Program-made: the position numbers and the translations under genes
Shown here: positions 3,067 to 52,614 of the stretch, piece by piece
Position numbering within the stretch: position 1 is the stretch's first letter
Layout: each line of letters opens with the position of its first letter
From: an uncultured Methanosarcinales archaeon
Lineage (GTDB): Archaea; Nanobdellota; Nanobdellia; Woesearchaeales; GW2011-AR4
Reading direction: 5' to 3'
NCBI GenBank assembly: GCA_964436645.1
Contig: CAYTDO010000003.1
Span: forward strand, 939-64,938
DNA length: 64,000 bases
The notes under the pieces: generated by a model
What the model was told of the DNA's origin: nothing
The model's input: only the letters and a program-made list of their open reading frames with translations
Database searches by the model: none

Positions 3067-4287
3067 ATGGAGTTTTTAGAAGAAATGAGCGAAAAAAGGC
3101 TGATTATTGCGGGGATAGATCCAGGGACAACTACGGGGTATGCTATCCTTGATCTCCAAGGAAACATTGTTTCTTTAAAATCTTCGAAAAATCTAGGATT
3201 GAATAGTTTGCTTGAGGAAGTGTTCAAGGAAGGCAAGGTCATTTGCGTTGGAACTGACAGGGCAAAGGTTCCTAATCTTATAGAACTTTTTTCTGCAAAA
3301 ACTGGAGCAAAAATACTTTTCCCGAAAGAGGACTTAAGAGTGGAAGAAAAAAGGGAGATTGTAAGGAAATTCAGTGCAAAGAACGGCCATGAAAGCGATG
3401 CGCTTGCTGCTGCTTTATTTGCTTTTGGCAGGATACGCAGCATCTTGGACAGGATAGAGAACTATGCTAGAGAAAACAATAAAATTGCAATAAAGGCAAA
3501 GATAGCTGACCTTGTTATTACGAAAGAGATTAGCATTAGGGAGGCTGCAGATATAATAGAGAATCCCGGCAAAGAAGAAAGCCAGATAATAAATAAGGTA
3601 ATTGAAAAGGATCAGCTAAGGCAAAAAGATTTCTTGAGGCTTTACCGCATAATAAAAATGCAGGAAAATGAGCTTGCTCTCTTGAAAAGGCAAAACCACA
3701 ATCTAAAGAACTACTCAAGATCTTTGGAAAGGAAGCACATCGGCGTTCAACAAAAAGAGGAATATGAGATTGATAAGAAGATACAAAAAAATCTTTCATT
3801 CAAGAACAAGAGCATCAATTTTCTGGAAGGAAGAGTATTTGAAAAAGACAAAGAGATAGGCATGCTGAAGAAGGCAGTGGCGGAATTTAACAGCCTGCTT
3901 GCCAATATACCTCAATCTACAATATTGAAAAAACTCGACAATCTTGGGAGCGCTGAATTCAGCAAAAAATTCCGTGAATTGAATATAAGCCAAGGCGATA
4001 TTTTGCTTGTCAAGAATCCTAATATAACAAGCACAGGTGTCATCCAGTTTCTCAAGGATAAAGTTGATATAATAGTTACCAAAGATGCCCCAAGCAAAAA
4101 GATAAAGGAAGATTTCAATTTTACATTTCTTGAGGCTGAAGCTCTTAACATCAAAGATCATGGAAAATTTGCATCTGCCCCTAAAATGGAGATAGCTAAA
4201 GCCCTGGAAAGCAAGACTCTCTTGAAATCAGTTATAGAAAGCTATAAGCAGAAAAAGAAAGAGGAGATTACTTCATTAAATCCCTGA
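3067..4287 (+). CDS. DUF460-family protein (predicted RNase-H-fold / Holliday-junction-resolvase-like nuclease) with a coiled-coil C-terminal half
   Basis: The N-terminus (RLIIAGIDPGTTTGYAILD...GKVICVGTDRAKVP...HESDALAAALFAFGRI) matches the archaeal DUF460 signature. The start is chosen at MEFLEEM to avoid overlap with ribK. Confidence 0.55.
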   Translation: MEFLEEMSEKRLIIAGIDPGTTTGYAILDLQGNIVSLKSSKNLGLNSLLEEVFKEGKVICVGTDRAKVPNLIELFSAKTGAKILFPKEDLRVEEKREIVRKFSAKNGHESDALAAALFAFGRIRSILDRIENYARENNKIAIKAKIADLVITKEISIREAADIIENPGKEESQIINKVIEKDQLRQKDFLRLYRIIKMQENELALLKRQNHNLKNYSRSLERKHIGVQQKEEYEIDKKIQKNLSFKNKSINFLEGRVFEKDKEIGMLKKAVAEFNSLLANIPQSTILKKLDNLGSAEFSKKFRELNISQGDILLVKNPNITSTGVIQFLKDKVDIIVTKDAPSKKIKEDFNFTFLEAEALNIKDHGKFASAPKMEIAKALESKTLLKSVIESYKQKKKEEITSLNP

Positions 4288-4702
4288 AGCTAAGGTTTAG
4301 CTTTCTTCCGGTTTTTATTTCCTTGGCCAATACTTTTTTATGCATTTGGATGATCTGAATTTTTTCGCCTTTATGTTCTATAATGTCGCCTTTCTTGAAG
4401 TATGGAAGCTTGAATAAAAGATTGACGCGATGAAGGTCCCTGCTCGTCTGCCTGCTCCTGGTGTGTATCCTGGTGCTTACAAGAATCTGGCCGCCAAAGC
4501 GATTTTGAAGCTTATTGCCAAGGCTCCTCAGTATTTTTTGCCTGGTGATATAGACATCGAACCCATCTCCAATTTCCTTCACTTTGGATATTGCCCCTGC
4601 TGGATCTTTCTCGATTTCGCTTACAACGAAGTTTACTACTTCTTCGTTTGCGTTCCTTAATTGCAAAATGCCTTCGTAATAATTGCTGTGGCGGGCTTCC
4701 AT
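4268..4702 (-). CDS. hypothetical protein, possible NMD3-like / RNA-binding OB domain
   Basis: 144-aa ORF containing GFDVYITRQKILRSLG. Only a weak resemblance to NMD3-like ribosome-biogenesis factors and no Cys cluster. Confidence 0.3.
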   Translation of the reverse strand: MEARHSNYYEGILQLRNANEEVVNFVVSEIEKDPAGAISKVKEIGDGFDVYITRQKILRSLGNKLQNRFGGQILVSTRIHTRSRQTSRDLHRVNLLFKLPYFKKGDIIEHKGEKIQIIQMHKKVLAKEIKTGRKLNLSFRDLMK

Positions 4703-4745
4703 TCTTCAGTTGAATATTATGCCCTTATTAAAGTTTGTCAAAAAC

Positions 4746-4970
4746 TAGCTTCGTGTAAAATGCAGGTTAGCAGCCTTGAGGTCGAATCTCTTTTATTATT
4801 CCAGCCAACTGACAAGGGGAGGTGCCACCTACGGGGAAAGTTAGTCTTTATGCAAAACACGAGAAAATTTCTTTGAAATTTTCTGTGTCCCGGAAATTGC
4901 AAAGCAATTTCCAAGGACATTAAAGATTCTAAGCCACTAACCCAAACGAAGTGAGTTTGTACACAACACT
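4746..4970 (+). mobile_element. decayed copy of a ~210-bp structured MITE-like element (paralog of the element at 52301-52509)
   Basis: Its first 25 nt (aaaatgcaggttagcagccttgagg) are identical to copy B. The 3' end is homologous (taaccc...gag) and internal differences are mostly transitions. Terminal inverted repeats are degenerate: agcttcgtgtaaaat at the left and tttgtacacaacact at the right. An approximate direct repeat tcaaaa(a)c flanks the element. Confidence 0.5.
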
Positions 4971-5014
4971 TCAAAAACAAAACCTTTTTATTCTGTTTGG
5001 AACTTTAAAAAAGG

Positions 5015-5734
5015 ATGAACAGAAAGACCAAAAAATTTGCCAAGAGAATATGGCATTTCATATGGGAGGATGACAGCGCCTGGAGCTGGATTGTTAACAT
5101 AGCCCTGGCTTTTATACTTATCAAGTTTGTAGTTTATCCTGGCCTTGCCTTTGTTCTTGGAACAAGCCACCCCGTTGTTGCAGTGGTTTCAAGCAGCATG
5201 GAGCATAACAGCATTAAATCCTGCGCAAACAATGGCATCAAGGATGTGCTTAGCGGGAATGCCGGCAAATGTGAATCGTATAAATTCACTATGTGCGGCA
5301 ATGTTTATGATGAAAAAAAGAATTTTAGCTTGGATGAATACTGGCAGGAATGCGGAGCATGGTATGAAAATTTAGATATTTCCAAAGAAGAATTTTTGAT
5401 TTTTCCATATAAGAATGGATTTAACAAGGGAGACATCATGGTTTTGAAAGGGGTTGAACCAGAAAAAATTTCTCAAGGAGACATACTGGTTTTCTTCAGC
5501 AACAGGAATGACCCAATAATTCATAGGGTTGTAAGCAAAAACGAAAGTAATGGGGGGATCATCATACATACGAAAGGAGATAATAATGAGGGTTCTATAA
5601 AAAGCAGCGCGCTTGATGAGACCAGGATTAATGAGGATGCAGTTATAGGTAAGGCAGTAATCAGGATTCCCCTTCTCGGCTATATCAAAATATGGTTTGT
5701 CGATGTGCTAAGATTTCTTGGTTTTCCTATTTAG
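5015..5734 (+). CDS. signal peptidase I (archaeal/eukaryal Sec11-type, S26 family)
   Basis: N-terminal TM anchor, then a catalytic Ser motif SSSMEH, box GDIMVLKG, and ...IIHRVV...HTKGDNN, typical of archaeal type I signal peptidases. Confidence 0.65.
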   Translation: MNRKTKKFAKRIWHFIWEDDSAWSWIVNIALAFILIKFVVYPGLAFVLGTSHPVVAVVSSSMEHNSIKSCANNGIKDVLSGNAGKCESYKFTMCGNVYDEKKNFSLDEYWQECGAWYENLDISKEEFLIFPYKNGFNKGDIMVLKGVEPEKISQGDILVFFSNRNDPIIHRVVSKNESNGGIIIHTKGDNNEGSIKSSALDETRINEDAVIGKAVIRIPLLGYIKIWFVDVLRFLGFPI

Positions 5735-7157: not shown

Positions 7158-8531
7158 GTGTTTGATTCGTTGGTTAGCAGATTCCCTATAATAGCAGTTT
7201 CTGGTATTTTTAGCAGCAAATATGAAGATATTGATATTTTGCCCCCTCCGCCACCCTTCCCTAAAATAAAGTCCAAGACAGAGGATGCCAAGGCGACAGA
7301 GAAAGCTGCAAAAGAAGAGCAAAGAAGGCGCAAGGAAGAAGAAAAAGCTCTCAAGCTACAGGAGAAAGATAGGCTTAGAGTAAAGGATCAGCAAAGGAAA
7401 GGGAGGAAGGAAAAGCTGTTTAATCTGCTGCATGGAGCTGGCTTAGTCAAGACTGAGGAAGAAAAGGCGCAGATTCGCAAGGAAAAGGAAAATTATAGAA
7501 ATTTTAAGCTGCAAGGAAAAAAGAAACGAGAAGAAACGTGGATAAAAGCAGAACAGGAAAGGATAGAACAAAAAGCGCTGGAAAAGCCCGGAAAAGAAAA
7601 AGCCTCAGAAAGGCTGCAAAAAGAAAAAGGAGGGCAAAAACCAGCAGATCAAATGGCCAATGAGAAAGAAAGATTAAGGCTTGAAAAGCTAGAAAAACAC
7701 GAGCAGGAGAAAAACGGGAAAAGAGAAAGGCGCGGATTGGATTTGTCTAAAATACAAACTTTAAAGATTCCAGAAAAGAAACAACTTTCCATAAAAGAGC
7801 AATTTTCCGGGCTTTTCCCAAAAATCGGCTTTGGGAGCAAGGAAGATGCTCCGGAACAGTATCCAATCATAACTAAAGAGTGGGGCATCTCTATTCCTAC
7901 TACTAGAACTAAGAAGATTAAGGGTATCCCTACACAAAATTTCCCGGAAGTGCGGGAGCTGAATTCAAAACAAAAAACAGGCTTCAAGAATTTCCCTGCA
8001 TCATCATTAAGCAAAAAGAAGGGAAAACAATTAGAGGAAGAACTTAAAGATTTAGATACGTTTAATGAAGGCAGAATCAAGACTGGAAAGAGTTTGGAGT
8101 TAAAAGATGATTGGGCAGAAAATACCAATGAGATTATTGTGGCGGAGAAAGAGATACAAGATGCTGTCGACGGCCTTAAAGCTGATGTGAAAAGGCCTTT
8201 CTTGAGCAGGATTTTCACGAAAAAGAAAAAAATCGAGACAGATGCCGGAGCTGAACCTCAAGTTGAAATGCCCCATATAATGCCAAGGACTTATGATAAA
8301 ATAGACTTTGTAGAAATGGCAGAGGCAAAGATACACAAGGCAAGGATGGCATTGATGGACTTCAATTTTGAAGATGCCAAAAGAATATATATCGAGGTGA
8401 TGGGGCTCTACAACAAAATGGAGCTTAAGGATAAGCATGATGTTTATGAAGATATAAAGGACCTGTATTATGAAAGGAAGAATGCGGAAAAGTTTGCAAA
8501 AAAAAGCAATGATATTTTAAAAAAATTCTAA
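7158..8531 (+). CDS. Lys/Glu-rich low-complexity coiled-coil protein (hypothetical)
   Basis: 457 aa. A PPPPPFP stretch is followed by about 250 aa of KEKE-type charged repeats and a more ordinary C-terminal domain. Confidence 0.45.
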   Translation: MFDSLVSRFPIIAVSGIFSSKYEDIDILPPPPPFPKIKSKTEDAKATEKAAKEEQRRRKEEEKALKLQEKDRLRVKDQQRKGRKEKLFNLLHGAGLVKTEEEKAQIRKEKENYRNFKLQGKKKREETWIKAEQERIEQKALEKPGKEKASERLQKEKGGQKPADQMANEKERLRLEKLEKHEQEKNGKRERRGLDLSKIQTLKIPEKKQLSIKEQFSGLFPKIGFGSKEDAPEQYPIITKEWGISIPTTRTKKIKGIPTQNFPEVRELNSKQKTGFKNFPASSLSKKKGKQLEEELKDLDTFNEGRIKTGKSLELKDDWAENTNEIIVAEKEIQDAVDGLKADVKRPFLSRIFTKKKKIETDAGAEPQVEMPHIMPRTYDKIDFVEMAEAKIHKARMALMDFNFEDAKRIYIEVMGLYNKMELKDKHDVYEDIKDLYYERKNAEKFAKKSNDILKKF

Positions 8532-12301: not shown

Positions 12302-12670
12302 ATGATGAAATTTGGCAGCTCTATATTGTATTACCTCATAGAGGAGTTAGAAGACTTGGGAGACGAGTTTAAAGCGATTGGAGCCATTCTTGCGAAAAAC
12401 AAGCCGGACAAAGATGTCCTTGATATCATTGCAAAATTGAATGAATTGTTCAGGATTAGCTACGAATTCTTTTATGAGCCGAAGAAAGACAAGGCTGTGC
12501 GCGCATTTAAAATGAATCAGGAAATTAAATCCTTAATAGATAACGTAGTTGATAAGAAAAATAAGGATATGGTTAAAGTGTTAATCGGGCTGGAATTATC
12601 CAACAGAATAGTTTACCATCTGACAACAATGCGGCTTGATACTCTAAAGGAATTGTCAGGGAATATGTGA
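12302..12670 (+). CDS. hypothetical helical protein (122 aa)
   Basis: The ORF 12179-12670 begins at an unlikely start. The internal MMKFG start is preferred. No family recognised. Confidence 0.35.
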   Translation: MMKFGSSILYYLIEELEDLGDEFKAIGAILAKNKPDKDVLDIIAKLNELFRISYEFFYEPKKDKAVRAFKMNQEIKSLIDNVVDKKNKDMVKVLIGLELSNRIVYHLTTMRLDTLKELSGNM

Positions 12671-12730: not shown

Positions 12731-12853
12731 GAATTTTACGCTCGCTCAATAGCTCGCATCACGCTCGAAAATCGTAGATTTTCGGTGTCCTGGAAATCTT
12801 TGATTTCCATGATTTTTGCCATTAAATGGGCGGAGGCACATTTTTTCCGCGCT
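12731..12853. repeat. ~125-bp hairpin-rich intergenic repeat, copy 1 of 3
   Basis: Shares gctcgcatcac...cgaaaatcgtagattttcg...ggaaatctttgatttcc...gccattaaatgggcggaggc...ttccgcgct with copies at 21204-21306 and 49867-49989. Three internal stem-loops. Confidence 0.65.
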
Positions 12854-12904: not shown

Positions 12905-13507
12905 TTATATCTCTATTATTTTTCCGTATGGGCCCGGATTTATTATTCTTGTCTTGTTTATCTTGTCTTCTTTCCCGAAGTTTTCATGCAGATGCCCGCA
13001 AATATGCAAGTCAACTTTATTTTTGGATATAAAGTTCCTTAAGGTCTTATTGCCGCAATGGCTTGTTACAATTAAATCCAGTTTTGTTCCGTATGGCGGG
13101 GCATGAGTTATAAATATTATTTTCTTAGCTTTGTTTTTCCTTATTATTTTGGCAAAGTTCTCCCCTATTCTGTAAAAGACTGGCTCTATCAAAGCAAATC
13201 CTGAGCCGCCATATCCCAAGAAGAGATATCCATTATGCCTGTATTGCTTTTTATGGATAAAGATTAAGTTTTTGTATTTTTTGCAAAGCCTTTTCATTAC
13301 GCTTCCGGTTTCATGATTTCCATGTATTAACAGTGTTTTTACGTTAAAGCTGTTTAATTTGCTTAGGATAAAATCGAGTCCGTGCTCAAATATTGTAAGG
13401 TCGCCAGCGCTTATTAATAAATCGGGCTTCTGCCTTTTTGCCTTTGACTTTATTTTTTTGAATGCTACTGAAGATAGGTGCAGATCGGTAAAGGCCAGGA
13501 GCTTCAT
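12905..13507 (-). CDS. metallophosphoesterase (calcineurin-like phosphoesterase)
   Basis: Motifs AFTDLH, ISAGDL, IHGNHE, GHLHE. Confidence 0.75.
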   Translation of the reverse strand: MKLLAFTDLHLSSVAFKKIKSKAKRQKPDLLISAGDLTIFEHGLDFILSKLNSFNVKTLLIHGNHETGSVMKRLCKKYKNLIFIHKKQYRHNGYLFLGYGGSGFALIEPVFYRIGENFAKIIRKNKAKKIIFITHAPPYGTKLDLIVTSHCGNKTLRNFISKNKVDLHICGHLHENFGKEDKINKTRIINPGPYGKIIEI

Positions 13508-19840: not shown

Positions 19841-21091
19841 TCACATCAACTCTATTTTTTTAACATTGTCTTTAATATTGGCTGTCTTGAACAGATTTTT
19901 AAGAAATGACTCTGCATCTGCAAAGGGGCGGTTTTCAAGGGCATATACTTTGTTGCTTTTCATGAAAGTTTTTTTGTGCTTTTTCCTGAAAAAATCTACA
20001 TGCATCTTCATTTTCAGGGGAGGGCCTTGCAGCTCTATTGCCTTTGAAAGGTTTTTGCTTTCAAGGGCATAGTACAGCAAAGAGCTGCTTTTTCCGTTCC
20101 AAATCATATTGCTTTCAATTATTTTAAAGCCGTAATCTAAAAATTTTTGCTGAATAAAATTAAATGCCTTCAGCATCTTTGCTCCAGCTACATCATCTTT
20201 TTTATCTAAAGGAAATGCCATGATTAAAATTAAATTCTTTCCAAATTTTCCCCTTAAATCCTGCTCTGATGCATGCCTGATTTCAAAAAATTCCTTTGAG
20301 GGTTTTTTCATGAATTCCCTTGCCCTTTGCTTCAAGAGCTCGAATTTTTCGCCGTCAAGAGCAGCAGATGCATTCCTGTCTTTTTGCACAGGATCTATCA
20401 GGATTAATGGGCTGACAAGCTTCGATTTATTCAGCTCCATAAGGATGTTTTTTCCCTTATGGGAATTTTTAGGGTCAATTATCTCCTTGCCTTTCCATTG
20501 GGATGATGCTTTTATCAGGTTACGGAAAGAGCCGTAATGTATTGTCAATATCTCGCAGACATATCCGGAGAATCCTTTTATGTAACTTTCAGCGCCATAG
20601 ACTCTTGCAGCCTTGAAGAACTGCTTTGCAAGCCTCATCTCGTCAATGAGCTTCTTGTGCTTTAGGACAAAATCTGCATGCAAAGGGCTTACATCAGTTA
20701 TGTTTTTTGCTTCCTCTGCTTTTTTAATTTCCAGGATTGGCACGATCTCAAAAGTAAAATCCTCCTGCCTTATCTGAAAATAATCTCTTGAACCGTGCAA
20801 TCTTGTTATCTTGAAATGCTTCTTTAGGAATTTTTCGAGAATTTCTGAGAGCTGAGAGTCCTTGTTTTTGTATTTCGCATAATTGAATTTGACAAAAATG
20901 TCAGCATCAAATGATTTTAGCCATGTTCCTTTCGCTCCAGAGCCCCCAAGGATTGCTTTTGCATCTTTTATTCCTTTGTTTATTGCTTTGATTATTTTGG
21001 AAGCTTTTTCAAGTATTTCCTGCTCATATCCTTTGTTGGGCCTTATGTCTTCCAGCACTTCTGAAAGAAGGTTTTTCATGTCGTTTTGCAT
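19841..21091 (-). CDS. cca: CCA-adding tRNA nucleotidyltransferase, archaeal class I
   Basis: GGSGAKGTWLKSFDADIFV matches the archaeal Cca GS...GT...D.D motif. Size 416 aa. Confidence 0.8.
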   Translation of the reverse strand: MQNDMKNLLSEVLEDIRPNKGYEQEILEKASKIIKAINKGIKDAKAILGGSGAKGTWLKSFDADIFVKFNYAKYKNKDSQLSEILEKFLKKHFKITRLHGSRDYFQIRQEDFTFEIVPILEIKKAEEAKNITDVSPLHADFVLKHKKLIDEMRLAKQFFKAARVYGAESYIKGFSGYVCEILTIHYGSFRNLIKASSQWKGKEIIDPKNSHKGKNILMELNKSKLVSPLILIDPVQKDRNASAALDGEKFELLKQRAREFMKKPSKEFFEIRHASEQDLRGKFGKNLILIMAFPLDKKDDVAGAKMLKAFNFIQQKFLDYGFKIIESNMIWNGKSSSLLYYALESKNLSKAIELQGPPLKMKMHVDFFRKKHKKTFMKSNKVYALENRPFADAESFLKNLFKTANIKDNVKKIELM

Positions 21092-21203: not shown

Positions 21204-21306
21204 GGCTCGCATCACGCTCGAAAATCGTAGATTTTCGGTGTCCTGGAAATCTTTGATTTCCATGATTTTTGCCATTAAATGGGCGGAGGCAGCATTTTAC
21301 CGCGCT
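21204..21306. repeat. ~125-bp hairpin-rich intergenic repeat, copy 2 of 3
   Basis: Near-identical to 12752-12853 and 49888-49989. Lies in the divergent promoter region between cca and the antiporter gene. Confidence 0.65.
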
Positions 21307-21398: not shown

Positions 21399-22553
21399 AT
21401 GGCTAGCGAAGTCTTATTGTACCTGGGCTATTTGGCAATTGTATTGCTGATAGGGCTTTTGACTTCTGCTTTAAGCCAAAAATTTAGAATTCCTAATATC
21501 TTGCTGCTTCTGCTTATAGGCTTTGGGATTGGAAGGATTAAGTATAATGGAATTCATTTAATCCAGTTTCCTGATAGTTTCATTTTAAGCATAAGCATAC
21601 TTGCTTTAGTTATGATTGTATTTGATTCTACATCTCGGCTTAAGCCTTTGAAGTTTGATTACTTTTCTATGCATACATTATGGCTGTCTTTCGTTTTCTT
21701 GTTATTTAACCTGATTTTTCTTACAATCATTGCGCGATGGATTTTTGGCATTAGCTGGATTAGTGCAGTTATATTTGGGGCTTTGATGTCTGGGACTGAC
21801 TTTAATTCGGTCTTGTCATTTTTTAGGGGAGCAAAGAATCAGGTGTTTGAATTTTTGGAGATGGAATCGTGGTTCAGCACAATATTTGTGAGTTTATTGC
21901 CTTTTCTTATTTTAGATTTTAGCGAGGCTTTAGGGGCTGCTAATGGCTTGTGGCTTTTTATTCAAAACATTACCATGAGCATTGCTGTTGGAGTGCTTAT
22001 AGGATTTGTAATGTTCAAGTTTATAGGGAGAAAATATTCTTCTGTGTCAAGCCCGCTTGCACTTATTTTATGCGCTTTGCTGGCCTATATTGTTGCGGAG
22101 AAGTTCAATGGAAACGGTGTTGTGGCTGCTGCGGCTTTAGGGCTTCTGTTTGGGAATGTTCATTTGAACCATAAAGAGCAACTGCATTCTTTTTCATCTG
22201 TTTTTTCCAGCTCTTTGGAAATTTTAGTGTTTGTTTTTATAGGCTTGATTGCACCTATTGATTTTTCACTTCGATTTTTTATCAATTCCCTGCTATTGTT
22301 TATTGCTTATGTTGGAATAAGGCTTTTTGCCATGCTTTTCTCTTTAAGGGGGATGCACTTTAGATTTAAAGATAAATTATTTATGGCATTGAATGCACAG
22401 AAAGGCGCAGTGGTTGGAGTGATTATCTTTGCATTTGCCAGCATGAAAATTAGCGGAATTAGCGGGATTTTGGGATTAAGCGTTATGTTTATGACTTATT
22501 CTTTGGTTTTGTCTTTTTTCTCCATGAGAATTGCAAAATCTTTTAGGTCGTAG
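21399..22553 (+). CDS. cation:proton antiporter (CPA/NhaP-Kef-like) membrane protein
   Basis: 384 aa with about 11 TM helices. N-terminal helix pattern YLGYLAIVLLIGLLTSALSQKFRIPNILLLLLIGFGIG is typical of Na+/H+ exchangers. Confidence 0.5.
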   Translation: MASEVLLYLGYLAIVLLIGLLTSALSQKFRIPNILLLLLIGFGIGRIKYNGIHLIQFPDSFILSISILALVMIVFDSTSRLKPLKFDYFSMHTLWLSFVFLLFNLIFLTIIARWIFGISWISAVIFGALMSGTDFNSVLSFFRGAKNQVFEFLEMESWFSTIFVSLLPFLILDFSEALGAANGLWLFIQNITMSIAVGVLIGFVMFKFIGRKYSSVSSPLALILCALLAYIVAEKFNGNGVVAAAALGLLFGNVHLNHKEQLHSFSSVFSSSLEILVFVFIGLIAPIDFSLRFFINSLLLFIAYVGIRLFAMLFSLRGMHFRFKDKLFMALNAQKGAVVGVIIFAFASMKISGISGILGLSVMFMTYSLVLSFFSMRIAKSFRS

Positions 22554-34888: not shown

Positions 34889-34898
34889 TAAAAAAGGT

Positions 34899-35010
34899 GG
34901 ACAGCTTCCCTAGTTTCCCATGCATTAACACAGTACAGCTAGGAACGGAGGCTTGTTTAACTTCGGAGTTCGGAATGGGATCCGGTGGAACCATGCCCCT
35001 ATGGCCGTCC
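34899..35010 (-). rRNA. 5S ribosomal RNA
   Basis: The minus-strand sequence GGACGGCCAUAGGGGCAUGGUUCCACCGGAUCCCAUUCCGAACUCCGAAGUUAAAC...GGGAAGCUGUCC shows 5S hallmarks (CCGAAC, AGUUAA loop region, helix I pairing GGACGGC/GCUGUCC). Confidence 0.85.
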
Positions 35011-35033
35011 AGCAAATAAGGAGTAATTCTTGC

Positions 35034-48412: not shown

Positions 48413-49759
48413 TTATGCTTTGATATAATCGGTTATGAATTCTGCTGCTTTCAGATCGCATTTTCGGCAATTGCAGCTTATTTTATTTATTTCTTCAATA
48501 TCAGAAGTTTTGTATTTTTCCATGGCTGATTCTATATTTCTTAGCCTGTATTGGTATGGCATCCCATAATCTCCATTTATGCATTCGTTATTTTTTTGGA
48601 AATTAAGGAATTTGATGTCAAAATTGATCTGGTAGGCTAGAATCAGCAAAATGAGGATTATTATCAGGTTTTTTGCAATTTTTGGAAAGGCTTCCATCAA
48701 TAATGCAATTGCGGTTCCTATCATTATGAAATAAAGCGGGAAAAATGACACAAAATAATGCGAGTCTATTGTTTGGACTTTGCTTATGGCAAGGAAAAAA
48801 GTTCCGACTAGAAGCCATAAAACCAGGATTATAGACTTTTTTTTGTATGCCAATAAAAAAGCTATTGATAAGAATAATATTGACATTGCTAAAATATCAA
48901 AGAATTTTATTGTTAATGTTTGGCTTTCAAATTTATTGTAATCTTCTCCGAATAGAGCTTCAAAGCCGTTTGTAGTCATTAAACTAAAAGGCATTAAAAA
49001 GGTATTTGTATGAAAGTTTGATTCTGTGTTTTTTAGATTTATGATAGTTTTAATGTCAACAAAATCATTGTTTATTTGAAATATAAAGTAGGGTATGAAA
49101 GTTATAAGAAATAAAATAATTCCAATGCTTAGGTATTTTTTATTGATGTTTTTCCAGTATAGAGCTATAGCTATTATTGCTACAAGGAGGAAGTACAATG
49201 CTGAGAGGTGTGTTTGAATCAAAAGGCCTAATGTTATTAAAGCATAAATTAAATGCAATTTGTTTTTATCGTAGATTGCATTGTAAAGGAAGTAAATGAA
49301 TATTATTGCGAATAATGGCAATAAATCCTGCGACCATATCTTTCTTGAGAATAAAATCTGCCAGGGATTTACTGCGTATAATGCAGAGGCTATTATTGCT
49401 GCTGTTCTATTGTAGAATTTTTTAATGAACGAGTAGAGCAAAAATATTGCGAATACGTTTAGTATTGCAATGAATGCCGCTGCCATTACTGGATTTTTTG
49501 AGATTAAGTATTGGATTGCCAATAAGTATATGAATATTGGGGGCTCATGGATTCCTGTTGTGCCTATAGAGGCCGTCAATGGAAATTCTTTTCCCCCTGC
49601 AAGATTTGATGCTTTAATTGAGTTAAAGGCCTCGTCTCCCTTGAATTCCATGTATTGGATGTTGTGCAATCTTAGGAAGAGGGCTATCAAGATGATGATT
49701 ATTATTGGCAAATAATTTTTTATTTTGGATATTAGCGGTTTTTTATCTGTTTTTCCCAT
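48413..49759 (-). CDS. GT-C-fold membrane glycosyltransferase-like protein (second copy in the locus)
   Basis: 448 aa, about 12 TM helices, and an N-terminal periplasmic loop with MEFKGDEAFN. Cys-rich C-terminus CNCRKCD. Confidence 0.5.
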   Translation of the reverse strand: MGKTDKKPLISKIKNYLPIIIIILIALFLRLHNIQYMEFKGDEAFNSIKASNLAGGKEFPLTASIGTTGIHEPPIFIYLLAIQYLISKNPVMAAAFIAILNVFAIFLLYSFIKKFYNRTAAIIASALYAVNPWQILFSRKIWSQDLLPLFAIIFIYFLYNAIYDKNKLHLIYALITLGLLIQTHLSALYFLLVAIIAIALYWKNINKKYLSIGIILFLITFIPYFIFQINNDFVDIKTIINLKNTESNFHTNTFLMPFSLMTTNGFEALFGEDYNKFESQTLTIKFFDILAMSILFLSIAFLLAYKKKSIILVLWLLVGTFFLAISKVQTIDSHYFVSFFPLYFIMIGTAIALLMEAFPKIAKNLIIILILLILAYQINFDIKFLNFQKNNECINGDYGMPYQYRLRNIESAMEKYKTSDIEEINKISCNCRKCDLKAAEFITDYIKA

Positions 49760-49866
49760 TGGATTATTTTTACTTTAGTTTTTTAAAAGCTTGATTTTTA
49801 ATTATTCTCTTTATGGGTTTTAATGAGTTTATTAGTGGAAATTTAATATTGAGCCATATTATCTTC

Positions 49867-49989
49867 GAATTTTACGCTTGCACAGTGGCTCGCATCACAC
49901 GCGAAAATCGTAGATTTTCGGTGGCCTGGAAATCTTTGATTTCCATGATTTTTGCCATTAAATGGGCGGAGGCGCATTTTTTCCGCGCT
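49867..49989. repeat. ~125-bp hairpin-rich intergenic repeat, copy 3 of 3
   Basis: Same element as 12731-12853. Shares the 5' extension gaattttacgct with copy 1. The listed ORFs 49813-50022 (+) and 49843-50034 (-) are translations of this repeat. Confidence 0.65.
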
Positions 49990-50093
49990 CGGTATCTTAC
50001 TAACACGATAATACCTTACTAATATCCCTTTCATTTGTTCTGTTTATTATTTTATTGCTAAAATTAATAAAGCCTGTTCTATAACTGCTGCTT

Positions 50094-50789
50094 ATGGAGA
50101 AATTGCCGACAGGCAGCAAGGTGCTGGATACGATGCTGGAAGGAGGGTATGAGAAAGATGTCATTACCACAGTTTACGGTCCTGCCGGAGCTGGAAAGAG
50201 CAACCTATGCATACTTTGCGCGATGAATACTGCGCGCTCAGGGAAAAAAGTCATTTACATCGATACTGAGAATAATTTCTCCATTGAAAGGTTCAGGCAG
50301 ATGTGCAGCGCCATAAAGCTCAATTACGCCAAATTGCTCAATAATATTGTTTTTCTCAAGCCAGCTTCATTTGAAGAGCAGAAAAAAACTTTTGAGAAAT
50401 TAAGGGATCATATCAACGACAAGATAGGTCTGATTGTTTTTGATTCGATTGCAATGCTTTACAGGCTGGAGCTCGGGAAGACAGAGGATGTGTATGAGAC
50501 AAATAGGGAATTGGGGAAGCAGCTTGCTCATCTTAAAGAGATTGCCTCCAGGAAGCAGATTCCTGTTTTGATAACCAACCAGGTCTATGCTGATTTTGAG
50601 GAGAAAGACCATGTGAATATTGTTGGAGGAGATTTGTTAAAGTATGGGAGCAAATGCCTGATGGAACTGCAGATAACTCCTTCCGGAAACCGCAGGATTA
50701 TCATTAAAAAGCACAGGCACATTCCAGCAAACAGGGAAATAATCTTCAAGATTGTGGAAGGTGGGATTATTGGGACGAAGGAAGGGTAA
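50094..50789 (+). CDS. radB: RadB / KaiC-like RecA-superfamily ATPase
   Basis: Walker A GPAGAGKSN and Walker B LIVFDS. About 230 aa, lacking the RadA N-terminal domain. Confidence 0.7.
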   Translation: MEKLPTGSKVLDTMLEGGYEKDVITTVYGPAGAGKSNLCILCAMNTARSGKKVIYIDTENNFSIERFRQMCSAIKLNYAKLLNNIVFLKPASFEEQKKTFEKLRDHINDKIGLIVFDSIAMLYRLELGKTEDVYETNRELGKQLAHLKEIASRKQIPVLITNQVYADFEEKDHVNIVGGDLLKYGSKCLMELQITPSGNRRIIIKKHRHIPANREIIFKIVEGGIIGTKEG

Positions 50790-52120: not shown

Positions 52121-52300
52121 CTAATCTCTATCGTTTGCTCCTGACAATAGAAAAAGTGTATGTTTATAAACTCTCTCAGGCCTGAATTTCTTCTTGAAAT
52201 TGAGCAAAATTGCCTGAACCTCCAAAATCAGTGCAATCATAGCCTACTCCTGTAAGCCGATAATTCAGTTTTTAGGTATTTTAAATATTTTGCATAGATG

Positions 52301-52509
52301 GGCTTCCATGAAAATGCAGGTTAGCAGCCTTGAGGCCGAGCCCCTTGCTAAGCACATCTAAAGAGTCCGAGGGGCCGCTCCGTGAGATGCGACGAGCGGC
52401 TTTTTAGCTCGCCGCCCGCAATTCACCGGACCTGACCGATGCTTTCAGCCCAGATGCAATGGGCTCGAAGCTGCTAACCCGTAGCGTAGCGGAGATTTTC
52501 ATGGAAGCC
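52301..52509 (+). mobile_element. intact ~209-bp GC-rich structured MITE-like element: perfect 15-bp terminal inverted repeats and perfect 9-bp target-site duplication
   Basis: TIR ggcttccatgaaaat (52301-52315) and attttcatggaagcc (52495-52509). TSD gcatagatg at 52292-52300 and again at 52510-52518. The interior is about 58% GC with a nested terminal helix GGTTAGCAGC/GCTGCTAACC and further helices (CCGAGCCC/GGGCTCG, CATCT/AGATG, CCGCTC/GAGCGG). A second copy lies at about 4746-4970. Confidence 0.7.
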
Positions 52510-52614
52510 GCATAGATGAGAACAAAGCCTAGTTACGGAGATTTTAAACAAACTTTTCCACAACCTTTTTAAACCGCTATTCGTAACTTTATACTCTAAC
52601 TAAAGGTAAGTTTC

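What the first reader, a model, noticed from the sequence alone, without database searches (positions are those of the whole stretch)
12731..12853. Second, unrelated ~125-bp intergenic repeat family present three times (12.7 kb, 21.2 kb, 49.9 kb), composed of three stem-loops
Three near-identical copies share the block GCTCGCATCAC-(G)CTCG-AAAATCGTAGATTTTCG-GTGTCCTGGAAATCTTTGATTTCC-ATGATTTTTGCCATTAAATGGGCGGAGGC-(loop)-CCGCGCT. Each hairpin is a perfect inverted repeat: CGAAAATC/GATTTTCG, GGAAATC/GATTTCC and GCGGA/TCCGC. All copies lie in intergenic spacers, one convergent and two divergent promoter regions. No TIR or TSD is evident, unlike the MITE above. They could be an sRNA gene family, a REP-like element or a protein-binding module. 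Copy 3 creates the spurious ORFs 49813-50022 and 49843-50034.
Basis: seen in the sequence. Interest (0 to 1): 0.65.

Follow-up and report, generated by a model that had tools for sequence, protein, structure and literature searches.

The report
Mobile double-hairpin repeat of Woesearchaeota
The three ~125-bp repeats are real copies of a small transposase-less mobile DNA element of DPANN (Woesearchaeota) archaea, built around a widespread 51-base double-hairpin core that elsewhere even sits in frame inside protein-coding genes.

Summary
Three + strand copies (12731-12853, 21205-21306, 49867-49989) are 93-100% identical over their shared part, have unrelated flanks, and match no Rfam family. Hairpins 1 and 2 are strong; hairpin 3 is not significant.

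The host is a Woesearchaeota/Nanoarchaeota MAG. Only the central ~51 nt (5'-ACAC-G-CGAAAATC-loop-GATTTTCG-GTGT-CC-TGGAAATC-loop-GATTTCCA-TG-3') recurs elsewhere. It occurs in about 20 other archaeal metagenome loci, with variable loops and compensatory stem changes (7 of 20 pairs).

The core lies in both orientations, in intergenic DNA and in frame inside a membrane protein, CoaE and a SpoU/TrmJ methylase, and at the start of a radical-SAM gene. Filled and empty alleles of the membrane-protein gene differ by exactly the 51-nt core. Alleles carrying it are polyphyletic.

No transposase lies in the window or next to any checked copy.

Best reading: a non-autonomous hairpin mobile element, like PATE, REP or Rickettsia RPE elements. 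The window carries a lineage-specific 125-nt composite subfamily. How it moves is inferred, not shown; an ssDNA/HUH-type route is my leading guess. It is a new variant of a known kind, of moderate interest.

The parts
12731..12853 (+). Copy 1 of the 125-nt composite repeat, between convergent genes (122-aa ORF 12302-12670 + and metallophosphoesterase 12905-13507 -)
12760..12811 (+). Conserved double-hairpin core of copy 1: CAC-GCT-[CGAAAATC gta GATTTTCG]-GTG-TCC-[TGGAAATC ttt GATTTCCA]-TG. Hairpin 1 is 12766-12784 and hairpin 2 is 12791-12809.
   Evidence: (78.7 bits)
12812..12853 (+). 3' extension specific to this genome (ATTTTTGCCATTAAATGG + weak hairpin 3 GCGGA 12830-12834 / TCCGC 12846-12850). 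No match in any other locus.
12731..12759 (+). 5' extension specific to this genome (GAATTTTAC|GCTCGCTCAATAGCTCGCAT), shared with copy 3 and mostly absent from copy 2
21205..21306 (+). Copy 2, which starts at the second GCTCGC. It lies between the divergent CCA-adding enzyme gene (19841-21091 -) and the Na+/H+ exchanger gene (21399-22553 +). Core is 21213-21264.
49867..49989 (+). Copy 3, between the divergent PMT_2 glycosyltransferase gene (48413-49759 -) and radB (50094-50789 +). Core is 49897-49947 (51 nt, ACAC...CATG).
4857..4972 (+). Fourth, diverged ('type B') copy: ACAC-G-[AGAAAATTTC ttt GAAATTTTCT]-GTGT-CCC-[GGAAATTGC aaa GCAATTTCC], then GCCACTAA and a third hairpin GAAGTG/CACTTC. It lies between the divergent genes 4268-4702 (-) and 5015-5734 (+).
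   Evidence: (42.3 bits)

Best explanation
The three copies, plus a fourth diverged one, are insertions of a non-autonomous mobile element that carries no transposase. It belongs to a family that is widespread in Woesearchaeota (DPANN archaea).

The active, conserved module is a ~51-nt core: 5'-ACAC-G-CGAAAATC-(loop)-GATTTTCG-GTGT-CC-TGGAAATC-(loop)-GATTTCCA-TG-3'. It consists of two sequence-related perfect hairpins joined by invariant single-stranded bases. In this genome the core is embedded in a lineage-specific composite of ~125 nt (a 5' extension of about 29 nt and a 3' extension of about 42 nt), and that composite has been copied at least three times.

Shown: dispersal to unrelated sites; presence or absence at orthologous sites; insertion of exactly the core, in frame, into coding sequences; and stems maintained by compensatory changes.

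Inferred: the element is mobilised in trans, with the hairpins recognised in single-stranded DNA by a HUH/Y1-type (IS200/IS605 TnpA- or RAYT-like) enzyme. That route inserts and excises seamlessly without target duplication, which would explain four features: the two similar near-terminal palindromes, the lack of a clean TSD, the apparent repeated gain or loss at a single codon, and the shared strand of all four window copies. The copies themselves are probably neutral passengers in the longest tolerant spacers.
For: - Unrelated flanks around three copies that are 93-100% identical.
- Only positions ~30-93 of the 125-nt unit match other loci.
- A pattern scan of metagenomes found 20 loci, about 16 of them genuine. 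All of those are AT-rich contigs, and those checked carry archaeal or Woesearchaeota genes.
- Covariance model R1 finds 18 full-length copies. 98.2% of cells are paired, and 7 of 20 pairs show changes on both sides. None of 500 shuffles reach these values, and slid-partner controls collapse.
- Orthologous sites differ. The copy-2 site is a 43-nt spacer in L004 and holds a different element in L001. R1 finds nothing in L001-L007.
- In L008 the core lies inside a 495-aa membrane-protein gene. The 17-19 aa insert is present in P0121, P0122, P0123 and P0130, degraded in P0128, and absent from 9 other homologues.
- Filled and empty alleles differ by exactly 51 nt, ACAC...CATG, with no clean TSD.
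- Carriers of the insert are polyphyletic.
- Copies also split CoaE and a SpoU/TrmJ methylase in frame, and one sits at the start codon of a radical-SAM gene.
- On average 3.8 of 6 frames are stop-free, against 1.6 in shuffles.
- About 11 copies are in sense and 6 in antisense orientation relative to their neighbours.
- Haloquadratum PATEs, including 52-bp 'terminal-only' forms with two similar palindromes, no ITR and no TSD, derive from IS605-type transposons (PMC3119063).
- A census reports a Woesearchaea genome with among the highest MITE densities in archaea (PMC11602168).
Against: - No transposase, integrase or HUH domain occurs in any of ~66 window ORFs or in ~25 ORFs next to copies elsewhere. 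No autonomous partner is identified.
- The hairpins sit only 2-5 nt from the ends of the 51-nt unit. In ISHp608 the distances are about 19 and 10 nt (own knowledge).
- No informative 4-6-nt target motif precedes the core; there is only A-rich sequence.
- 6 of 20 copies have flanking 8-10-nt direct repeats, against 8% in controls. This hints at a TSD-making DDE enzyme instead.
- It is unexplained why the 125-nt composite moves as a unit in this genome.
- Compensatory changes in the orthologous in-ORF copies could mean the hairpins have a function of their own.
- The source genome beyond the window could not be searched. A 22-mer gave 0 hits in genome and metagenome contigs.
Confidence: 0.7

Rival explanations
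1. A family of small non-coding RNA genes, or cis-acting RNA hairpins such as mRNA-stabilising or processing signals. The two hairpins would be the functional RNA structure, and the copies would be paralogous genes.
For: The fold is strong and statistically supported, with compensatory changes. T-runs follow hairpin 2 and lie in hairpin 3 of the window copies. Single-stranded bases (ACAC-G, CC, TG) are invariant. All four window copies are on one strand.
Against: No Rfam family matches, even at E<=10. There is no conserved promoter-like sequence upstream. Copies lie in both orientations relative to neighbouring genes. Copies are translated in frame inside three different proteins, in different frames and orientations. 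Wobble pairs show no strand asymmetry: 3 G-T against 2 C-A. Three of the four window copies lie between divergent genes, where no read-through transcript is expected.
Confidence: 0.1
2. A classical MITE mobilised by a DDE transposase. The imperfect terminal inverted repeat (5' ACACGCGAAAATC versus the reverse complement of the 3' end, TCATGGAAATC) would be the transposase binding site, and insertion would create an 8-10-bp target duplication.
For: The ends form an 11-13-nt imperfect TIR (read directly). 6 of 20 copies have flanking direct repeats of 7 nt or more, against 7.9% in cross-copy controls. Examples are ATGAAGACA in L022 and ATATTTTAAT in L029. The L023/L025 variant has a perfect 14-bp outer TIR.
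Against: The direct repeats lie at variable offsets from the core. In the best filled/empty pair the apparent repeat already exists in the empty allele, and the length difference is exactly the 51-nt core. The window copies show no TSD. No insertion sequence with matching ends was found. The one DDE_Tnp_1 element seen, in L030, has unrelated ends. Conservation covers the whole element, not just its termini.
Confidence: 0.15
3. A host-functional DNA module: a binding or extrusion site for a chromosomal protein (nucleoid, replication, recombination or regulation). It would be kept by selection at each site rather than being selfish.
For: The core is about 90% conserved across hosts whose contigs range from 29 to 47% GC. 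Half-sites of the form GAAA(A)T recur in every hairpin, including accessory ones. Orthologous in-ORF copies keep their pairing through double substitutions.
Against: Neighbouring genes share no function. Copies are absent from the orthologous sites of close relatives. Stem lengths (7-10 bp) and loop lengths (2-9 nt) vary, which does not suit a fixed-geometry duplex operator. P0128 carries a degraded copy.
Confidence: 0.05

Closest known systems
PATEs (palindrome-associated transposable elements) of Haloquadratum walsbyi, derived from IS200/IS605-type transposons. They include 52-bp 'terminal-only' forms (PMC3119063).
   Same: Archaeal and without a transposase. No long terminal inverted repeats and no target duplication. 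Two near-terminal palindromes that resemble each other. A minimal mobile form of about 52 bp. Heterogeneous terminal regions around a conserved palindrome, giving subfamilies of different length.
   Different: No sequence relation was tested or seen. No IS605-type parent (tnpA or tnpB) was found here. The hairpins lie within 2-5 nt of the ends. No defined 4-6-nt targeting oligonucleotide is apparent. The host is a DPANN archaeon, not a haloarchaeon. PATEs are not reported as in-frame inserts in genes.
Rickettsia palindromic elements (RPEs) (reviewed in PMC10969869)
   Same: Short palindromic repeats with no known transposase. They are found in intergenic DNA and, remarkably often, in frame inside unrelated housekeeping genes, where they add a peptide segment. 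Their reading frames are kept free of stop codons. The host has a reduced genome and a symbiotic or parasitic lifestyle.
   Different: RPEs are about 100-150 bp and bacterial (Rickettsia). Here the unit is 51 nt and archaeal. There is no sequence homology. Here the insertion at one gene site is polyphyletic among alleles.
REP / BIME / REPIN elements with their RAYT transposases (own knowledge; PMC3184786 listed)
   Same: 20-40-nt palindromes arranged in pairs, high copy number, hairpins recognised as single-stranded DNA by a HUH Y1 enzyme, and no TSD.
   Different: REPs are strictly extragenic, G+C-rich, and carry a 5' GTAG-type tetranucleotide. Pairs are inverted rather than tandem. A flanked RAYT gene defines the system, and none was seen here.
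Classical prokaryotic MITEs and the 'small mobile repeats' (SMRs) of Haloquadratum
   Same: Small, non-coding, multi-copy elements with inverted termini. SMRs likewise make no target duplication and have an unknown means of movement. A census reports a high MITE density in a Woesearchaea genome.
   Different: MITEs keep only their termini and normally show a constant TSD. Here the whole 51 nt is conserved, with covarying stems, and the TSD evidence is equivocal.

Membership tests
Dispersed mobile repeat (generic) | Multiple near-identical copies with unrelated flanks in one genome | tested here: met
Dispersed mobile repeat (generic) | Presence or absence at orthologous sites of relatives | tested here: met
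   The copy-2 site is a 43-nt spacer in L004 and holds a different insert in L001. Membership of the membrane-protein gene insert differs among alleles. R1 gives no hit in L001-L007.
Classical MITE | Terminal inverted repeats | tested here: inconclusive
   There is an imperfect 11-13-nt TIR (ACACGCGAAAATC versus TCATGGAAATC). It is inseparable from the two internal palindromes. The ends of the 125-nt composite have no TIR.
Classical MITE | Target-site duplication of constant length | tested here: inconclusive
   6 of 20 copies have direct repeats of 7 nt or more, against 7.9% in controls, but at variable offsets. The filled/empty pair shows none.
Classical MITE | A parent insertion sequence with matching ends and a transposase | tested here: not met
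   No transposase domain occurs in the window ORFs or in neighbours of other copies. The DDE element in L030 has unrelated ends. A genome-wide search was not possible.
PATE / IS200-IS605 derivative | Two near-terminal palindromes of similar sequence, with no ITR and no TSD | tested here: met
   The stems CGAAAATC/GATTTTCG and GGAAATC/GATTTCC are related. The insertion is a seamless 51 nt.
PATE / IS200-IS605 derivative | A conserved 4-6-nt target just 5' of the element, and a conserved 3' terminal oligonucleotide | tested here: inconclusive
   The 5' flank is only A-rich. The 3' end CATG(A) is conserved. TTAC precedes the composite in copies 1 and 3, which is only two cases.
PATE / IS200-IS605 derivative | Sequence relation to the ends of an IS605-type transposon, or a Y1 (HUH) transposase in the genome | not testable with these tools
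   The rest of the source genome is not available. None was found in the 64-kb window.
REP / RAYT | Strictly extragenic palindromes with a 5' GTAG-like motif, and a RAYT gene flanked by REPs | tested here: not met
   Copies lie inside ORFs. There is no GTAG motif. No Y1 domain occurs in the window.
RPE-like behaviour (analogy, not homology) | In-frame insertion into unrelated protein-coding genes, with the reading frames kept open | tested here: met
   Inserts lie in a membrane protein, CoaE and SpoU/TrmJ, and at the start of a radical-SAM gene. On average 3.8 of 6 frames are open, against 1.6 in shuffles.
Known RNA family (Rfam 15) | Covariance-model match at or near the gathering score | tested here: not met
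   The only window hit is 5S rRNA. The best hit on the element scores 18 bits against a threshold of 175.
sRNA gene | Own promoter and terminator, and a consistent orientation | tested here: inconclusive
   No conserved upstream motif is present. Orientations are mixed. T-runs are present in the window copies. No expression data are available.
Integron attC site | A single long imperfect hairpin bounded by R''/R' core sites (RYYYAAC/GTTRRRY), following gene cassettes | tested here: not met
   There are two separate perfect hairpins and no R sites. The consensus used for attC is from my own knowledge.

The most novel reading that the evidence does not exclude
The 51-nt double hairpin is not just junk DNA. 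It would be a minimal substrate of a seamless 'peel-and-paste'-type system in DPANN archaea, one that repeatedly enters and leaves the same codon positions of housekeeping genes. This would create 17-aa length polymorphisms in proteins. Its hairpins would be kept by selection, or by gene conversion, even when translated. In effect it would be an archaeal counterpart of the Rickettsia RPEs, with a tractable mechanism, or even a host-used structural signal.
Probability: 0.2. Interest if true: 0.75.

Novelty: new variant of a known kind. Interest (0 to 1): 0.55.

Why it matters
DPANN archaea have tiny genomes, and their mobile DNA is almost undescribed beyond bulk MITE counts. This family is very short (51 nt). 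It is conserved across many Woesearchaeota from marine and groundwater metagenomes. It is structurally constrained, and it is tolerated in frame inside essential enzymes.

That makes it an archaeal parallel to the long-unexplained Rickettsia palindromic elements, and to the 52-bp PATEs of haloarchaea. It also offers a compact system for asking how hairpin elements without a transposase move and how they remodel proteins.

In practical terms, it explains spurious ORFs and unexpected length variants in Woesearchaeota gene calls, and it can serve as a lineage marker.

Tried and rejected
- Segmental duplication: rejected, because the flanks are unrelated.
- Known RNA families, tRNA or tmRNA: rejected.
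- C/D-box sRNA, H/ACA sRNA, hammerhead ribozyme and BHB intron: considered by inspection and rejected. The box motifs are absent, the stems are perfect with no pocket, and the in-ORF copies stay open and translated in all lineages.
- Micro-ORF starting at the ATG that ends the core (MIFAIKWAEAHFFRA in copy 1): rejected. Downstream sequence and peptide length are not conserved in other loci.
- Double-stranded operator: unlikely, because stems and loops vary in length.
- Exact 22-mer GATTTCCATGATTTTTGCCATT: 0 hits in genome contigs and metagenome contigs. The source genome is not in those collections, and the look-up of encoding contigs could not find the window's proteins.
- The search for related loci with the CCA-adding enzyme returned only 2 distant loci.
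- The viral contig scan gave 0 hits.
- A concatenated-peptide query for in-frame copies returned a single 67-aa ORF. A 31-aa query against the representative library returned only unrelated repetitive proteins. Both queries were too short to be informative.
- The radical-SAM protein of L022 could not be aligned with the one in L029. It therefore stays open whether that copy is an N-terminal extension or a 5' leader.
- The 43-aa insertion in P0133 is unrelated to the window's GC-rich MITE.
- Wobble-pair strand asymmetry, tested to decide which strand folds: uninformative.

Full report
OBSERVATION. Alignment and repeat finding give copy 1 at 12731-12853, copy 2 at 21205-21306 and copy 3 at 49867-49989. 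Copies 1 and 3 are 93% identical over about 125 nt. Copy 2 is identical in the centre but starts about 25 nt later, at the second GCTCGC. Sequence outside these limits is unrelated, so this is a dispersed repeat and not a segmental duplication. The gene contexts are as described. Copy 1 lies between convergent genes. Copies 2 and 3 lie between divergent genes: CCA-adding enzyme and Na+/H+ exchanger, and PMT_2 glycosyltransferase and RadB. Hairpins 1 and 2 are perfect and far more stable than shuffles (z -5 to -6.4). The third hairpin is not significant (z -1.3 and -0.3), and it is shorter in copy 2. The two 'spurious' ORFs over copy 3 exist.

HOST. The genes are archaeal: Taw1, the archaeal CCA enzyme and RadB. 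The CCA enzyme is 100% identical to a protein on a 71,963-nt NCBI contig. Its nearest named relatives are 'Candidatus Woesearchaeota' and 'Nanoarchaeota' MAGs. The window averages about 37% G+C. It holds one 5S rRNA gene and no tRNA gene. The source genome is not in the searchable contig collections.

ANATOMY. nhmmer and a motif search found a fourth + strand member at 4857-4972. It has the same plan but different stems: AGAAAATTTC/GAAATTTTCT, GGAAATTGC/GCAATTTCC, and a third hairpin GAAGTG/CACTTC. The linker TTTTC-K-GTG-K-CC-Y-GGAAAT is shared between this copy and the other three. I used it to build a degenerate pattern, and that pattern retrieved 20 metagenome loci, about 16 of them genuine.

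Only the central part of the window's unit is conserved in those loci: 5'-(A)ACAC-G-CGAAAATC-loop-GATTTTCG-GTGT-CC-TGGAAATC-loop-GATTTCCA-TGA. Here ACAC/GTGT extends hairpin 1 across a bulged G. A search with the whole 125-nt unit matches other loci only over positions ~30-93. The 5' part of ~29 nt and the 3' part of ~42 nt, including hairpin 3, have no match elsewhere.

Other lineages carry other composites. One has a perfect 14-bp outer inverted repeat (L023, L025). One has a tandemly duplicated hairpin-2 unit (L014). Some have extra GAAAATC hairpins (L016).

STRUCTURE IS CONSTRAINED. A covariance model built from 12 cores finds 18 full-length copies at E<=1e-9. These include copies the scan pattern could not have selected (L029, L032, the second copy in L008, L020). 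On that alignment 98.2% of cells pair. Seven of 20 pairs show changes on both sides, in 13 cells. No shuffle out of 500 reaches these values, and sliding the 3' partners collapses the pairing to 31-59%. Two caveats apply: the alignment is fitted to the model, and part of the invariance reflects the scan pattern. Loops vary freely in sequence and in length (2-9 nt), and stems vary from 7 to 10 bp. That fits an extruded hairpin in single-stranded DNA or RNA better than a fixed duplex operator. Non-Watson-Crick cells show no strand asymmetry, so the folding strand cannot be named. Rfam has nothing similar.

IT INSERTS, AND IT DOES SO INSIDE GENES. At the copy-2 site a 72%-identity relative has only a 43-nt spacer (L004). 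An 83%-identity relative has conserved flanks around a different, GC-rich TIR element (L001). The model finds no copy in seven orthologous loci of relatives.

In L008, a Woesearchaeota contig, one copy lies in reverse orientation inside a 495-aa membrane-protein gene, where it encodes ...YHGNRRFPGHRKSTIFAC.... Among 14 homologues the insert is present in four, degraded in one and absent from nine. Codon-level comparison of three filled alleles and two empty ones shows that the difference is exactly 51 nt, from ACAC to CATG. It lies between the same two codons, with no clean target duplication. In a neighbour-joining tree made without the insert, the carriers are scattered. Either the same site was hit repeatedly or the element was lost seamlessly several times. 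The three filled alleles differ from each other by compensatory double substitutions: CGAAAATC/GATTTTCG to CAAAAATT/AAATTTTTG, and ACAC/GTGT to ATAC/GTAT.

Two further independent in-frame cases were found. A type-B copy, together with its flanks, splits dephospho-CoA kinase; the PDB chain 2if2 aligns to residues 33-119 and 198-283. A type-A copy splits a SpoU/TrmJ methylase, which aligns to residues 2-88 and 150-182. In L022 a copy sits 12 nt after a tRNA gene and immediately after the ATG of a radical-SAM gene. It is in frame and is flanked by a 9-nt repeat, ATGAAGACA.

Cores keep on average 3.8 of 6 frames free of stop codons, against 1.6 in mononucleotide shuffles. This is also why copy 3 produces ORFs on both strands. 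By a crude ORF map, about 11 copies are in sense and 6 in antisense orientation relative to neighbouring genes.

HOW IT MOVES (INFERRED). No transposase, integrase or HUH domain occurs in any of ~66 window ORFs or in ~25 ORFs beside copies in other loci. The only DDE fragment seen, in L030, has unrelated ends. The core ends form an imperfect inverted repeat. Six of 20 copies have flanking direct repeats of 7 nt or more, against 7.9% in cross-copy controls. However, these lie at variable offsets, and the best example is already present in the empty allele.

Several features point to a single-stranded DNA, HUH/Y1-type 'peel-and-paste' route of the IS200/IS605 (TnpA) or RAYT kind:
- two similar palindromes close to the ends;
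- no clean TSD;
- seamless presence or absence at one site;
- invariant unpaired bases next to the hairpin feet;
- all four window copies on one strand (p about 0.125, so weak on its own).

This resembles the Haloquadratum PATEs, including 52-bp terminal-only forms thought to be mobile (PMC3119063). I give about 0.7 to 'non-autonomous mobile hairpin element'. Within that, I give about 0.35 to the HUH route and about 0.15 to a DDE-mobilised MITE; the rest is unknown. Three things are unexplained: how the 125-nt composite is copied as a unit; why the translated copies keep their hairpins; and what the flanking TTAC at copies 1 and 3 means.

COMPARISON AND NOVELTY. In behaviour the family parallels the Rickettsia palindromic elements, which insert in frame into unrelated genes and have no known transposase (PMC10969869). 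In architecture it parallels PATE and REP elements. It fails REP/RAYT membership, because copies lie inside genes, there is no GTAG motif and no RAYT gene was seen. It cannot be filed as a classical MITE, because the TSD is equivocal and no parent insertion sequence was found. PATE membership cannot be decided without a parent IS605-type element. A census paper notes a Woesearchaea genome with one of the highest MITE densities among archaea (PMC11602168). I found no description of this element, of its sequence, or of in-frame palindromic elements in archaea in the searchable literature.

VERDICT. The element is a new variant of a known kind, of moderate interest.

Noticed in passing
window 52279-52510 and 4725-4792; L001 823-915: A separate GC-rich MITE with ~45-nt terminal inverted repeats lies at 52.3 kb, and a partial left end lies at 4.7 kb, next to the fourth copy. 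The 83%-identity relative carries a different GC-rich TIR element, sharing a CGTAGCG.AGCGGAGATTT motif, exactly at the orthologous site of copy 2.
   Followed up: partly
P0133 (homologue of the L008 membrane protein), alignment A7 columns ~226-268: An unrelated 43-aa in-frame insertion lies at another position of the same protein family. This suggests that other elements also land in frame in Woesearchaeota genes. It shows no similarity to the window's GC-rich MITE.
   Followed up: partly
window 34896-35012 (-): A lone 5S rRNA gene (80.8 bits) has no adjacent rRNA operon, and there is no tRNA gene anywhere in the 64 kb.
   Followed up: no
window 12302-12670 (+): A 122-aa ORF with no Pfam hit lies immediately upstream of copy 1. 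It is absent from the syntenic Taw1-metallophosphoesterase interval of relative L007, so the ORF and the repeat may have arrived together.
   Followed up: no
L010 4722-5276 and 5889-6503: ORFs for ribosomal proteins L31e (184 aa) and S19e (204 aa) are far longer than their Pfam domains. They may carry further in-frame insertions or low-complexity tails in these genomes.
   Followed up: no
L032 7162-7232 (-): An extra copy, with an enlarged hairpin 2, lies in the bpMoxR-DUF7502 spacer. That spacer is 256 nt here but only 125 nt in L029, giving another presence/absence case.
   Followed up: partly
window 7158-8531 (+): A 457-aa ORF with no Pfam match lies in a stretch of unusually high AT skew (0.22).
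   Followed up: no
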